Virus genome (UHGV): UHGV-1809322
Source of the DNA: a virus
Direction: 5' to 3' (one strand)
Length of the DNA stretch: 14,967 bases
Position numbers and translations under genes: made by a program. Position 1 is the stretch's first letter, and each line of letters starts with the position of its first letter. The notes beneath the pieces were generated by a model that saw only the letters and a list, made by a program, of their open reading frames with translations, did not search any database and was not told where the DNA came from. Positions 3,084 through 4,372 of this stretch are shown here, piece by piece.

Positions 3084-3887
3084 CTAATTTTGTGATGTTC
3101 GCATCATTGTCTGGATGAGTTTAGCGAACCTTCCTTCATAGAAATGCGGCTGAGTCTGGCGCGGATTGCCTGGTGATGTCAGGTTTTTGCCGTATTCCAG
3201 CCCTTTTTCAGTCAGGCACCAGTAGTGTTTTTCTCCCCTGGTACTGGTTCGCGTTTTCTGCTCAACGATCCCCTGTTCTGCCAGCCTGGCGTAAGCCTTC
3301 TGTGAGGAGAGTTTTACACCGTGCTCTGTGAGTAACTGGCGCAGGCTGGCCGTTGGTTCACTGCTTCCGCCGATTGCGTCCGGGGGTGCGTCTACTGCGT
3401 ATGCGGGTAGTAGGTCCGGGAGTCCTGCGGCACGTTGCAGCTGGCGAAGGCCCGCTAATACGCTGCTATCAGATATGTGGAGTAATTTCCTGCTACCGTC
3501 GAGCAACGCTATCCCCATTCGGATCTGCTCTTCACCTGGTAAAGCTGGGGTGCTGGTGGGTGTTGCCGGTGTACTGGATAACTGCATAGACTCCAGCTTG
3601 TCCACCAGCGAACGACGGACCGCTTTGGACTCGCGGGCGGCAACTCGGAGGGCTTGTTTGTATGACATGGCGATCACTGTCTGATCTGAGCCACCACGGG
3701 CCTTATCCATAGGGGTTACGAAAATTTCGTAACCCTCTCCCTCCAATTCATCCTTAACCCGATTAATGAAATCATTATTACGGATCGCCTTCTCACCACT
3801 TTCCTTGCGCGCCAGGTTAACCATTTTCAGGAGATCCTGGGTGTTGATAAAGGCCGAACTGGCGTTTGTGGTTGTAAGATTCATCAT
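3084..3887 (-). CDS. KilA/antirepressor-family protein (267 aa); C-terminal region resembles the KilAC/ANT domain
   Basis: SD AGGGGAGG upstream of tandem ATG-ATG; start overlaps the upstream gene's stop in an ATGA arrangement. The C-terminal segment (…SLRQLLTEHGVKLSSQKAYARLAEQGIVEQK…KHYWCLTEKGLEYGKN…) matches my recollection of phage antirepressor C-terminal domains. Followed by the terminator at 3049-3078. Confidence 0.55.
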   Translation of the reverse strand: MMNLTTTNASSAFINTQDLLKMVNLARKESGEKAIRNNDFINRVKDELEGEGYEIFVTPMDKARGGSDQTVIAMSYKQALRVAARESKAVRRSLVDKLESMQLSSTPATPTSTPALPGEEQIRMGIALLDGSRKLLHISDSSVLAGLRQLQRAAGLPDLLPAYAVDAPPDAIGGSSEPTASLRQLLTEHGVKLSSQKAYARLAEQGIVEQKTRTSTRGEKHYWCLTEKGLEYGKNLTSPGNPRQTQPHFYEGRFAKLIQTMMRTSQN

Positions 3888-4372
3888 GCAGCCTCCCCTT
3901 CAAACACCGGCATCATTAACGCGCCACCAGCAATATCTGCGCCAGCATCCAGCAACTGGCGAACATCAGCCAGATAGGTATTGGTTCCGAGCGGTTCTAA
4001 CACTGCCCGGGCACATGTTATTAGCGTGCGGAGTTGAGAGAATTTAGCGTACAGGACCGGGAGGGCATCTTCTGGCGTGATATCAAGATCGTCATCAAAC
4101 AGGTAAGCGTGGCGAAAATCAGCAACGTCCGGTGCTATATCCCACGCGTGCCAGATAGCGCGTTTGATGGCATCCAGCTGGAGTTGACCATCCGATAACG
4201 TGGAAAGATTTCCTGTTGGGTTGAGTGCCAGCATTCTGGATGCCAGCGCTTCCGCACAAGTAGGATCGGTGACGCTGATAAACATCGATGAGCGAAGCGC
4301 ATTAAGTGCGAGAACAGATAATGTGTCGGATGACAGGTAAGACTGGGTAGGGGTCGTTGCCATGACAGGCAT
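3884..4372 (-). CDS. Hypothetical protein (159-162 aa), first gene of a two-gene operon with the KilA-like gene
   Basis: Track ORF starts at 4372, but the SD (GAAGAGG) abuts that ATG. The in-frame ATG at 4363-4361 has better spacing (~9 nt), so the start is probably 4363 (MATTPTQ…). Stop overlaps the downstream start (ATGA). No recognisable motif. Confidence 0.6.
   Translation of the reverse strand: MPVMATTPTQSYLSSDTLSVLALNALRSSMFISVTDPTCAEALASRMLALNPTGNLSTLSDGQLQLDAIKRAIWHAWDIAPDVADFRHAYLFDDDLDITPEDALPVLYAKFSQLRTLITCARAVLEPLGTNTYLADVRQLLDAGADIAGGALMMPVFEGEAA

What the first reader, a model, noticed from the sequence alone, without database searches (positions are those of the whole stretch)
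3084..4372. Translationally coupled two-gene operon ending in a KilA/antirepressor-like protein, with no replication gene downstream
The 267-aa protein has a KilAC/ANT-like C-terminal region and is coupled by an ATGA overlap to an upstream protein of unknown function. In the P1 paradigm kilA is followed by repL and a lytic origin. Here the operon ends in a strong terminator followed by repeat-containing non-coding DNA. This suggests a rearranged or different regulatory module; the 159-aa partner could be a novel co-factor or anti-repressor partner.
Basis: partly seen in the sequence, partly recalled or inferred. Interest (0 to 1): 0.45.

Follow-up and report, generated by a model that had tools for sequence, protein, structure and literature searches.

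The report
RNA-gated phage antirepressor operon
This is a phage "anti-immunity" switch of the kind known from phage P1, in which a small antisense RNA encoded just upstream keeps a two-gene antirepressor operon silent; here the first gene is an unrelated protein found only in this lineage, and related elements carry several such cassettes, each with its own RNA "address".

Summary
The two overlapping genes exist, on the minus strand: ORF159 (3884-4363) and a 267-aa protein (3084-3887), joined by an ATGA overlap and ending at a strong hairpin terminator. It holds a C4 antisense RNA (Rfam 71 bits; P1's own C4 scores 68.8), an isrK/a1b1-type decoy with a terminator, and two target sites, one of them over the ORF159 ribosome-binding site. 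This is the layout of the P1 immI operon (c4-icd-ant), not of kilA-repL.

The 267-aa protein is not a KilA. Its N-terminal half is 52% identical to P1 Ant. Its C-terminal domain gives no Pfam ANT/KilAC hit and belongs to a different, shuffled domain family.

ORF159 sits where icd sits in P1 but is unrelated to it. It is acidic, under purifying selection (dN/dS 0.07-0.25), and found only in a rare lineage of about 95-kb P1-like phage-plasmids.

Eleven cassettes from that lineage show perfect compensatory covariation between each C4 and its own targets. Genomes carry two to four cassettes with different specificities.

The "repeat-containing non-coding DNA" is a separate conserved module, a candidate type I toxin-antitoxin, not an origin.

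Verdict: a new variant of a known system.

The parts
4674..4702 (-). Sigma-70-like promoter of the cassette: -35 TGGTCA (4702-4697), 17-nt spacer, -10 TATAGT (4679-4674). The -10 block TAGTAT/TATAAT aligns in six of the seven cassettes compared.
   Evidence: consensus scan and alignment; the transcription start is inferred
4689..4735 (-). Two 14-nt direct repeats, TGGTCATT(AA/GT)ATGA, at 4702-4689 and 4735-4722, over and upstream of the -35. Candidate operator for the element's own repressor.
   Evidence: they occur only here in the window; function inferred by analogy with the P1 operator Oc4
4530..4605 (-). isrK / a1-b1-type leader element. It comprises a hairpin with a1 (UUGCAAC, 4580-4574) in its loop, b1 (UCACAGAAGCGC, 4566-4555), and an intrinsic terminator (stem 4552-4535 plus U-run).
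   Evidence: Rfam isrK 62.4 bits (gathering score 50); c4-a1b1 35 bits, below its gathering score. Terminator scan; complementarity.
4418..4505 (-). C4 antisense RNA: a long closing stem and two hairpins. The loop b' is GUGCUUCUGUGA (4464-4453) and the single-stranded a' is GUUGCAA (4446-4440). The 3' end is ...CACCACCA.
   Evidence: Rfam C4 71.0 bits (gathering score 45), E = 1.8e-12; P1's own C4 scores 68.8. MFE -47.3 kcal/mol, z = -4.6. All pairs formed and 13 of 33 compensatory in 11 cassettes.
4395..4429 (-). 10-bp hairpin (CUCACCACCA / UGGUGGUGAG) with target a2 (UUGCAAC, 4414-4408) in its loop. Its 5' arm is also the 3' strand of the C4 closing stem, so the two structures are alternatives.
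   Evidence: In the a'-a2 helix 5 of 7 pairs change on both sides and 100% of cells are paired.
4372..4384 (-). Target b2 (UCACAGAAG, 4384-4376), which overlaps the Shine-Dalgarno AGAGGA (4377-4372) of ORF159.
3884..4363 (-). ORF159. It occupies the icd slot of P1 immI but is unrelated to Icd. It is acidic (pI 4.25), predicted helical, and under purifying selection.
3084..3887 (-). 267-aa antirepressor-type protein. It has a P1-Ant-like N-domain (about aa 12-104), a linker, and a conserved C-terminal domain (about aa 117-262, PHROG 129) that contains a winged helix. Its start overlaps the ORF159 stop (ATGA).
3050..3078 (.). Bidirectional intrinsic terminator (AAAAAAACCACCT / AGGTGGTTTTTTT). 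It ends the ant operon, and on the + strand it ends a conserved candidate sRNA of the backbone.

Best explanation
The locus is a P1-type immunity-I ('anti-immunity') cassette read leftwards on the minus strand.

1. A promoter at about 4702-4674 makes a leader. The leader first carries a decoy element (a1/b1) followed by a terminator; this part matches the isrK family.
2. Next comes the precursor of the about 88-nt C4 antisense RNA.
3. Then come two C4 target sites. a2 lies in a hairpin loop, and b2 lies on the ribosome-binding site of ORF159.
4. Mature C4 pairs through its loop (b') and its single-stranded segment (a') with b2 and a2. This blocks translation of ORF159.
5. The antirepressor gene starts inside the ORF159 stop codon (ATGA), so blocking ORF159 also blocks Ant.
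6. When C4 is outnumbered, ORF159 and Ant are made, and Ant inactivates the element's main lysogeny repressor. C4 could be outnumbered by a burst of transcription after infection, by derepression of the promoter, or by titration by the a1/b1 RNA.

Shown here: the presence, fold and covariation of the RNA elements; the position of b2 on the SD; the coupling geometry; the homology of the Ant N-domain to P1 Ant; and purifying selection on ORF159.

Inferred: processing of C4, the decoy role of the isrK-like RNA, the repressor target of Ant, and the role of ORF159. I consider ORF159 most likely an obligate partner of the conserved Ant C-domain, because the two always occur together in this lineage.
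For: RNA elements:
- Rfam C4 scores 71 bits (gathering score 45) and isrK 62.4 bits (gathering score 50) immediately upstream of ORF159. P1's own C4 scores 68.8 bits.
- C4 folds into the family structure at -47.3 kcal/mol, z = -4.6.
- b' is complementary to b1 (12 nt) and to b2 (9 nt, overlapping the SD). a' is complementary to a1 and a2 (7 nt each).
- The order of elements equals the annotated P1 immI: operator, promoters, a1, b1, c4, a2, b2 at the icd SD, icd, then ant coupled by ATGA.

Covariation:
- In 11 cassettes 100% of 361 pair cells are standard pairs.
- 13 of 33 pairs show changes on both sides, including 5 of 7 in the trans helix a'-a2.
- 0 of 500 shuffles reach this, and slid controls give 25-49% paired.
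- Cognate C4-target duplexes (-21 to -27 kcal/mol) are the best within each genome.

Proteins:
- Ant aa 14-135 is 52% identical to P1 Ant1 aa 116-233, E = 1e-31. It also hits PHROG 1726 'anti-repressor' at 7e-21.
- A stop/start overlap is conserved in all cassettes.
- ORF159 has dN/dS of 0.07-0.25.

Experimental precedent:
- In Gifsy-1 isrK-orf45-anrP, the upstream ORF is coupled by ATGA and is needed for antirepressor translation. IsrK is complementary to the processed downstream RNA STnc1160 (PMC4825925).
Against: - There are no expression or binding data for this element.
- The primary repressor and its operators are not identified. The P1 C1 operator consensus is absent from the window.
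- The Ant C-terminal domain differs from P1 Ant (no KilAC) and looks like a basic winged-helix DNA-binding domain. The protein might therefore act on DNA rather than on a repressor.
- ORF159 has no detectable homology to anything of known function, and its AlphaFold model is poor, pLDDT 48.
- Ant has its own SD-like GGAGG 4 nt before its ATG, so the strictness of the coupling is unproven.
Confidence: 0.85

Rival explanations
1. One reading: this is a rearranged KilA-type module, a host-killing or lytic-replication control protein that has lost its repL/oriL partner. The repeats downstream would be a relic or variant origin.
For: - Some database homologues are named 'KilA-N domain-containing protein'.
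- Foldseek against viral models returns proteins annotated KilA/KilAC at E = 4e-8 to 1e-3.
- The downstream DNA contains a perfect 22-nt direct repeat.
Against: - There is no KilA-N or ANT Pfam hit at E <= 1, while the P1 controls score 1e-21 to 1e-32.
- BLASTP against P1 KilA gives E = 0.38. hhalign against KilAC gives probability 0.9%.
- The homologues named KilA-N owe that name to a different N-domain.
- The downstream region is a backbone module that is also present in E. kobei with no ant cassette beside it. It has a conserved small ORF, a conserved promoter and a conserved terminator, and its two repeat copies changed in concert. It has no iteron array.
Confidence: 0.03
2. The RNA control is as described, but the 267-aa protein is a DNA-binding transcription factor or host-directed effector (Rha/Bro/KilA-like) rather than an antirepressor that binds the lysogeny repressor.
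For: - The C-domain is basic (pI 9.35) and predicted to contain a winged helix similar to PadR, MerR and Orc1 winged-helix domains.
- PHROG 129 is labelled 'transcriptional regulator'.
- The same C-domain is fused to DNA-binding-type N-modules (KilA-N, Rha) in other phages. It also occurs in ordinary early operons without C4 or ORF159, for example in Castellaniella.
Against: - The N-domain is 52% identical to the experimentally defined P1 antirepressor (role of Ant1/2 from PMC8546580).
- Every characterised C4/isrK-gated gene of this layout encodes an antirepressor (P1, Gifsy-1).
Confidence: 0.2
3. ORF159 is only a leader ORF whose translation matters, as proposed for Gifsy-1 orf45, and its protein product has no function.
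For: - In Gifsy-1 the nucleotide sequence of orf45 is conserved but its amino-acid sequence varies.
- ORF159 has no recognisable domain and a poor structure model.
Against: - dN/dS is 0.07-0.25 with near-saturated dS.
- Length is nearly constant: 159 aa in 17 of the 18 homologue clusters, 156 aa in P0019 at 46% identity.
- 59 columns are invariant.
- At 159 aa it is far longer than coupling needs.
Confidence: 0.07

Closest known systems
Phage P1/P7 immunity-I operon (c4 - icd - ant1/ant2)
   Same: - The order of parts is the same: promoter, a1/b1, terminator-like hairpin, processed C4 RNA with b' in a loop and a' single-stranded, a2 in a hairpin loop, and b2 on the SD of a leader ORF.
- The stop codon of that leader ORF overlaps the ant start (ATGA).
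- The Ant N-domain is homologous, 52% identical.
   Different: - The leader ORF is a 159-aa acidic protein unrelated to the 73-aa Icd.
- Ant has no Ant1-type N-terminal extension and no KilAC domain.
- No P1 C1 operator is present.
- No kilA-repL follows.
- The cassette lies between dmt and the PAAR/upfC gene, not between bplB and pmgC.
- Relatives carry two to four cassettes per genome.
Gifsy-1 isrK - orf45 - anrP (Salmonella; PMC4825925)
   Same: - An isrK-family element with its own terminator is followed by a processed C4-like RNA and an antirepressor. An upstream ORF coupled by ATGA is required for antirepressor translation.
- IsrK is complementary to the downstream processed RNA, as a1/b1 are to C4 here.
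   Different: - In Gifsy-1 the leader ORF is 45 aa, overlaps the C4-like RNA and is not conserved as a protein.
- Here ORF159 lies downstream of C4 and is conserved as a protein.
- Whether the short isrK-like RNA activates expression here is untested.
P4 CI RNA with seqA/seqC, and the N15 CA RNA anti-immunity locus (own knowledge; P4 comparison cited in PMC4825925)
   Same: A processed small RNA is flanked by two complementary sites on the same transcript, and it gates downstream anti-immunity or replication genes.
   Different: Those systems act mainly by premature transcription termination. The cargo genes differ. Whether termination contributes here is unknown.
P1 kilA-repL lytic replicon
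   Same: Only that P1 KilA and P1 Ant belong to the same shuffled superfamily of phage regulators, and that in P1 this unit lies next to immI.
   Different: - No KilA-N domain and no KilAC domain are present.
- There is no repL and no origin-like iterons.
- The P1 unit has its own C1-controlled promoter, whereas this operon is under C4 control.

Membership tests
P1-type immI operon (C4 antisense RNA-controlled antirepressor) | A C4 RNA gene recognised by the curated covariance model | tested here: met
   RF01695 scores 71.0 bits against a gathering score of 45; the P1 control scores 68.8. The fold matches the family structure.
P1-type immI operon (C4 antisense RNA-controlled antirepressor) | Two recognition segments (a', b') complementary to one site pair upstream (a1/b1) and one downstream (a2/b2), the downstream pair covering the RBS of the leader ORF | tested here: met
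   Compensatory covariation in 11 cassettes: 100% paired, 0 of 500 shuffles reach this.
P1-type immI operon (C4 antisense RNA-controlled antirepressor) | A leader ORF translationally coupled to the antirepressor gene | tested here: met
   The ATGA overlap lies at 3884-3887, and a stop/start overlap is conserved in all cassettes. Functional coupling cannot be tested with these tools.
P1-type immI operon (C4 antisense RNA-controlled antirepressor) | The leader ORF is Icd (cell-division inhibitor) | tested here: not met
   BLASTP of ORF159 against P1 Icd gives E = 0.26 over 10 residues.
P1-type immI operon (C4 antisense RNA-controlled antirepressor) | Ant homologous to P1 Ant1/Ant2 | tested here: inconclusive
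   The N-domain is homologous (E = 1e-31). The C-terminal KilAC domain of P1 Ant is absent.
P1-type immI operon (C4 antisense RNA-controlled antirepressor) | Promoter under the primary repressor (C1 operator) | tested here: inconclusive
   The P1 operator consensus is absent at up to 3 mismatches. Two 14-nt repeats at the -35 are candidate operators for an unidentified repressor.
P1-type immI operon (C4 antisense RNA-controlled antirepressor) | Ant inactivates the lysogeny repressor | not testable with these tools
   Needs genetics or biochemistry.
KilA / KilA-N + KilAC (ANT) proteins | KilA-N domain (PF04383) | tested here: not met
   No hit at E <= 1; the P1 KilA control scores 2.8e-21.
KilA / KilA-N + KilAC (ANT) proteins | KilAC/ANT domain (PF03374) | tested here: not met
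   No hit at E <= 1, while the controls score 1e-30 and 2e-32. hhalign probability is 0.9%. Only a fold-level resemblance to a winged helix remains.
isrK family (Gifsy-1-type leader sRNA) | Match to RF01394 above the gathering score, with its own intrinsic terminator, upstream of a C4-like RNA and an antirepressor | tested here: met
   62.4 bits against a gathering score of 50. Terminator at 4552-4530. The same arrangement is found in 9 of the 11 related cassettes.

The most novel reading that the evidence does not exclude
The cassette may be one unit of a multi-copy, RNA-addressed anti-immunity arsenal peculiar to a rare lineage of about 95-kb P1-like phage-plasmids of E. coli and Enterobacter.

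- Each genome carries two to four isrK-C4-ORF159-Ant cassettes, plus orphan C4 genes.
- The two-part recognition code (a', b') is reshuffled between cassettes, so each C4 silences mainly its own antirepressor.
- The Ant N-domains are swapped (P1-Ant-like, Rha, P22-AR-N) on a constant C-domain.
- ORF159 would be a new obligate partner of that C-domain, as a co-antirepressor or chaperone.
- The different cassettes and orphan C4s would serve in cross-induction of, or immunity against, competing relatives, or would respond to different inputs.
Probability: 0.25. Interest if true: 0.7.

Novelty: new variant of a known kind. Interest (0 to 1): 0.45.

Why it matters
The immI switch of P1 is a textbook example of antisense control, but it has been studied as a single-copy module with icd as leader.

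This locus shows that the RNA scaffold (decoy, processed antisense RNA, RBS target, coupled leader ORF) is a portable chassis. Its leader protein and its antirepressor domains can both be exchanged.

In one lineage the chassis has been multiplied with re-coded, largely orthogonal recognition sequences. That offers a natural set of matched antisense/target pairs for studying the specificity of RNA-RNA recognition.

It also points to a conserved protein of unknown function, ORF159, that is tied to antirepressor action and is directly testable.

For annotation, the case shows that names such as 'KilA-N domain protein' have been transferred wrongly to this family.

Tried and rejected
- Pfam, PHROGs, NCBIfam, PADLOC and PDB sequence searches gave nothing for ORF159.
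- A full HMM profile search of 1.84 billion representative proteins found only 3 clusters for ORF159. The GTDB genome scan found none.
- AlphaFold of ORF159 gave pLDDT 48. That is too poor for fold search, so none was run on it.
- ORF159 shows no similarity to P1 Icd or to the Ant1-specific N-terminus.
- KilAC membership of the C-domain was rejected by Pfam with positive controls and by hhalign.
- The origin-of-replication reading of 2317-3083 was rejected. There is no iteron array, and the region is a conserved backbone module that is also present where no cassette is adjacent.
- No tRNA is present.
- The P1 C1 operator and the 14-nt promoter repeat were searched across the window. Neither occurs elsewhere.
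- Megablast of the window against phages, plasmids and complete E. coli genomes gave no close relative.
- Column-wise covariation could not be used for b'-b2, because the pairing register differs by 2 nt between cassette types. Duplex energies and longest complementary runs were used instead.
- The older P1 papers (PMC196329, PMC312442) are not held.
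Full report
**Observation**

The window carries two ORFs on the minus strand, at 3084-3887 (267 aa) and 3884-4372. All 18 database homologues start MAT(I/T)PTQ at that position, and a GAGGA Shine-Dalgarno lies 8 nt upstream. The ATG at 4372 sits inside that SD.

The stop codon of ORF159 and the start of the 267-aa gene overlap as ATGA. Five bases after the stop of the second gene lies a perfect 13-bp hairpin followed by U8 (3050-3078; -18.6 kcal/mol, z = -4.9). The next gene leftwards is the convergent, P1-like bifunctional methyltransferase dmt (82-2316).

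**Genomic setting**

The window belongs to a distant P1-like myovirus phage-plasmid. It encodes dmt, a PAAR protein, homologues of P1 gp23, sheath gp22 and gp21, PmgG, a tube/baseplate protein and PmgC. These are collinear with P1.

It is 100% identical to about 96-kb contigs from ERZ27238145 and GCA_054775975.1. It has no close relative in 50,697 phage records, 72,556 plasmids or 5,426 complete E. coli genomes. The best plasmid match is an Enterobacter kobei plasmid at about 74% identity over part of the window.

In P1 the immI-kilA-repL block lies between bplB/pmgF and pmgC. In the window those two structural genes abut (13330-13830 and 13830-14390), so that site is empty.

The 385 nt upstream of ORF159 hold two Rfam matches on the same strand:
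- C4 antisense RNA, 4418-4505, 71.0 bits (gathering score 45).
- isrK, 4530-4605, 62.4 bits (gathering score 50).

P1's own C4 scores 68.8 bits in the same search. The C4 sequence folds into the family structure at -47.3 kcal/mol, z = -4.6.

Read in P1 nomenclature (P1 annotation and sequence), the leader contains, in order:
- A sigma-70-like promoter, -35 TGGTCA and -10 TATAGT, 4702-4674.
- a1, UUGCAAC, in a hairpin loop (4580-4574).
- b1, UCACAGAAGCGC (4566-4555).
- An intrinsic terminator (4552-4530).
- C4, with loop b' GUGCUUCUGUGA (4464-4453) and single-stranded a' GUUGCAA (4446-4440).
- a2, UUGCAAC, in the loop of a 10-bp hairpin (4429-4395).
- b2, UCACAGAAG (4384-4376), overlapping the SD of ORF159.

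This is element for element the layout of P1 immI, where the leader ORF is icd and its stop overlaps ant1 in the same ATGA fashion.

**Comparative test of the RNA model**

ORF159 homologues led to ten further cassettes:
- a second one in the window's own genome;
- one in an E. coli relative;
- four in a single 95,253-bp E. cloacae element;
- three in E. kobei plasmid CP156932, and one fetched from CP104726, which tblastn shows also has three copies.

All have a C4 just upstream, and nine of the ten also have an isrK element there.

Each cassette has its own a' and b' sequences, and its own a1/b1 and a2/b2 match them. On an alignment of the 11 leaders, the C4 structure plus the trans helix a'-a2 gives these counts:
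- 100% standard pairs in 361 cells.
- 13 of 33 pairs with changes on both sides, including 5 of 7 in a'-a2.
- 0 of 500 shuffles as good.
- 25-49% pairing when partners are slid by 1-3 columns.

The b'-b2 pairing uses a register that differs by 2 nt between cassette types, so I scored it by duplex energy. Cognate pairs are -21 to -27 kcal/mol and are the best within each genome.

In the window's own genome the second cassette keeps b' but has a' UUCGAA instead of UUGCAA, and both of its targets changed in the same way. I regard the antisense mechanism as strongly supported by sequence evidence. RNA processing and the decoy role of the a1/b1 (isrK-like) RNA are inferred from P1 (own knowledge) and from the Gifsy-1 work. 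In that work IsrK is complementary to the processed downstream RNA STnc1160, and the ATGA-coupled leader orf45 is needed for translation of the antirepressor AnrP (PMC4825925).

**The 267-aa protein**

Pfam finds no KilA-N, ANT/KilAC, Bro-N, Rha or P22_AR domain at E <= 1. The same library scores P1 Ant1 at 1.2e-30 (ANT) and P1 KilA at 2e-32 (ANT) and 2.8e-21 (KilA-N). BLASTP gives no similarity to P1 KilA (E = 0.38). It gives 52% identity between aa 14-135 and P1 Ant1 aa 116-233 (E = 1e-31).

PHROGs splits the protein into an 'anti-repressor' N-part (phrog_1726, 7e-21) and a 'transcriptional regulator' C-part (phrog_129, 1.5e-29).

The database search shows classic domain shuffling:
- The C-domain (about aa 117-262) is fused to Rha, P22_AR_N or KilA-N N-modules in other proteins.
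- The N-domain is fused to KilAC in the P1-type Ant proteins.

An hhalign comparison of the C-domain profile with a P1-type KilAC profile gives probability 0.9%.

The AlphaFold model (pLDDT 73) shows a winged helix at aa 178-250. It has weak PadR, MerR and Orc1 winged-helix matches in the PDB. Against viral models it hits proteins annotated KilA/KilAC/antirepressor at E = 4e-8 to 1e-3.

So 'antirepressor-like' holds through the N-domain and the context. 'KilA' does not hold. 'KilAC-like C-terminus' holds at most at fold level.

**ORF159**

ORF159 occupies the icd slot but is unrelated to Icd and to the Ant1-specific N-terminus. It has no hit in Pfam, PHROGs, NCBIfam, PADLOC or PDB sequences.

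The family is tiny:
- 18 clusters in 5.8 billion proteins.
- 3 representatives in a full HMM search of 1.84 billion.
- 2 of 72,556 plasmids, with three copies each.
- No phage record.

It is nevertheless a real protein. dN/dS is 0.07-0.25 with near-saturated dS, length is nearly constant, and 59 columns are invariant. It is acidic (pI 4.25, net charge -11), whereas Ant is basic (pI 9.4). Its AlphaFold model is all-helical but unreliable (pLDDT 48).

In every cassette examined ORF159 is followed by a protein with the same C-domain, whatever the N-domain. This includes the 46%-identical relative P0019. The C-domain also occurs without ORF159 in more distant phages. My working inference is that ORF159 is a lineage-specific partner of the Ant C-domain. 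This is not shown.

**The downstream 'repeat-containing non-coding DNA'**

Aligning 2317-3090 with the E. kobei plasmid shows that the whole stretch is conserved backbone, including the 3050-3078 terminator. In E. kobei it lies between Dam and the PAAR gene with no ant cassette beside it. It contains:
- The dmt terminator.
- A 53-aa hydrophobic ORF (2356-2517, minus strand) with a strong SD.
- A roughly 95%-conserved 5' UTR holding copy 1 of the 22-nt repeat (2596-2617).
- A conserved promoter-like pair (TTGATC, 16 nt, TAGACT; 2870-2897).
- Copy 2 of the repeat (2903-2924).

Both copies carry the same G-to-A change in E. kobei. The simplest reading is a + strand sRNA (about 2903-3085) whose 5' end pairs with the 5' UTR of the small-protein mRNA. 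That would be a candidate type I toxin-antitoxin pair. It is not an origin.

Relative to E. kobei, the ant cassette and two secreted-protein genes (ORF197, ORF509), together 3084 to about 7100, are an insertion that uses the sRNA's bidirectional terminator.

**Comparison and novelty**

By function and architecture this is a member of the P1/P7 immI, Gifsy-1 isrK-anrP, P4 CI and N15 CA class of processed-antisense-RNA anti-immunity switches. It departs from P1 immI in five respects:
- the leader protein is not Icd;
- the Ant C-domain is not KilAC;
- the operator is not the P1 operator;
- the genomic position is different;
- it is not associated with kilA-repL.

The unexpected feature is multiplicity. 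There are two to four complete cassettes per genome, with recombined a'/b' codes and swapped Ant N-domains, plus orphan C4 genes. One orphan in the window's own genome is identical to the C4 of a cassette in a related E. coli element and is followed by a truncated ORF159. I found no paper describing this.

I rate it a new variant of a known kind, with moderate interest.

Noticed in passing
It comprises a 53-aa hydrophobic ORF (2356-2517, minus strand) and a strongly conserved 5' UTR with a 22-nt element (2596-2617). A perfect second copy (2903-2924) sits at the start of a putative + strand sRNA with a conserved promoter (TTGATC/TAGACT, 2870-2897) and the 3050-3078 terminator. Both copies share the same G-to-A change in the E. 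kobei plasmid.
   Followed up: partly
window 3084 to about 7100, compared with L001 8437-8781: The ant cassette plus ORF197 and ORF509 form an insertion of about 4 kb relative to the E. kobei plasmid backbone, where Dam, the small-ORF/sRNA module and the PAAR gene are adjacent.
   Followed up: partly
window 5381-6910 (-) and 4758-5351 (-): Two cargo genes with no family hits. ORF509 has a signal peptide, an (LPN)n tandem repeat at about aa 88-122 and a glycine-zipper-like stretch. ORF197 has a signal or lipobox-like N-terminus. They may be a secreted effector and its partner.
   Followed up: no
L019 4746-5152 (the window's own genome, second locus): An orphan isrK-C4 unit is followed by a truncated 55-aa ORF159 and lies directly upstream of a complete cassette (isrK-C4-ORF159-Rha-type Ant). 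The orphan C4 is identical to the C4 of a cassette in a related E. coli element (L004). This suggests cassette replacement by recombination, and retention of an 'immunity-only' C4.
   Followed up: partly
L012-L015 (E. cloacae JXAE01000010.1, 95,253 bp); L024/L025 (E. kobei CP156932): There are four complete cassettes (plus two extra C4 genes) in one E. cloacae element, and three in each of two E. kobei plasmids. The a' and b' segments are recombined independently: for example L015 and E. kobei cassette c share b', while the window and cassette c share a'.
   Followed up: yes
window 3297-3305 (-) and 4630-4644 (-): An extra exact copy of the b2 9-mer UCACAGAAG lies inside the ant coding region. 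An additional leader hairpin, CCUGUUGACGGCAGG, has a loop resembling the P1 a-site UUGACAG. Whether either is bound by a C4 RNA is unknown.
   Followed up: no
L020 5365-5586, L030 242-463: Gene callers place a 73-aa 'Phage_ASH' (PF10554) ORF over the C4 RNA region, so that Pfam hit probably reflects translated C4-like RNA genes.
   Followed up: no
L007 8470-9400 (E. kobei CP104726): The Ant gene after ORF159 is frameshifted near its N-terminus while its C-domain reading frame stays intact. It may be a pseudogene or a sequencing error.
   Followed up: no
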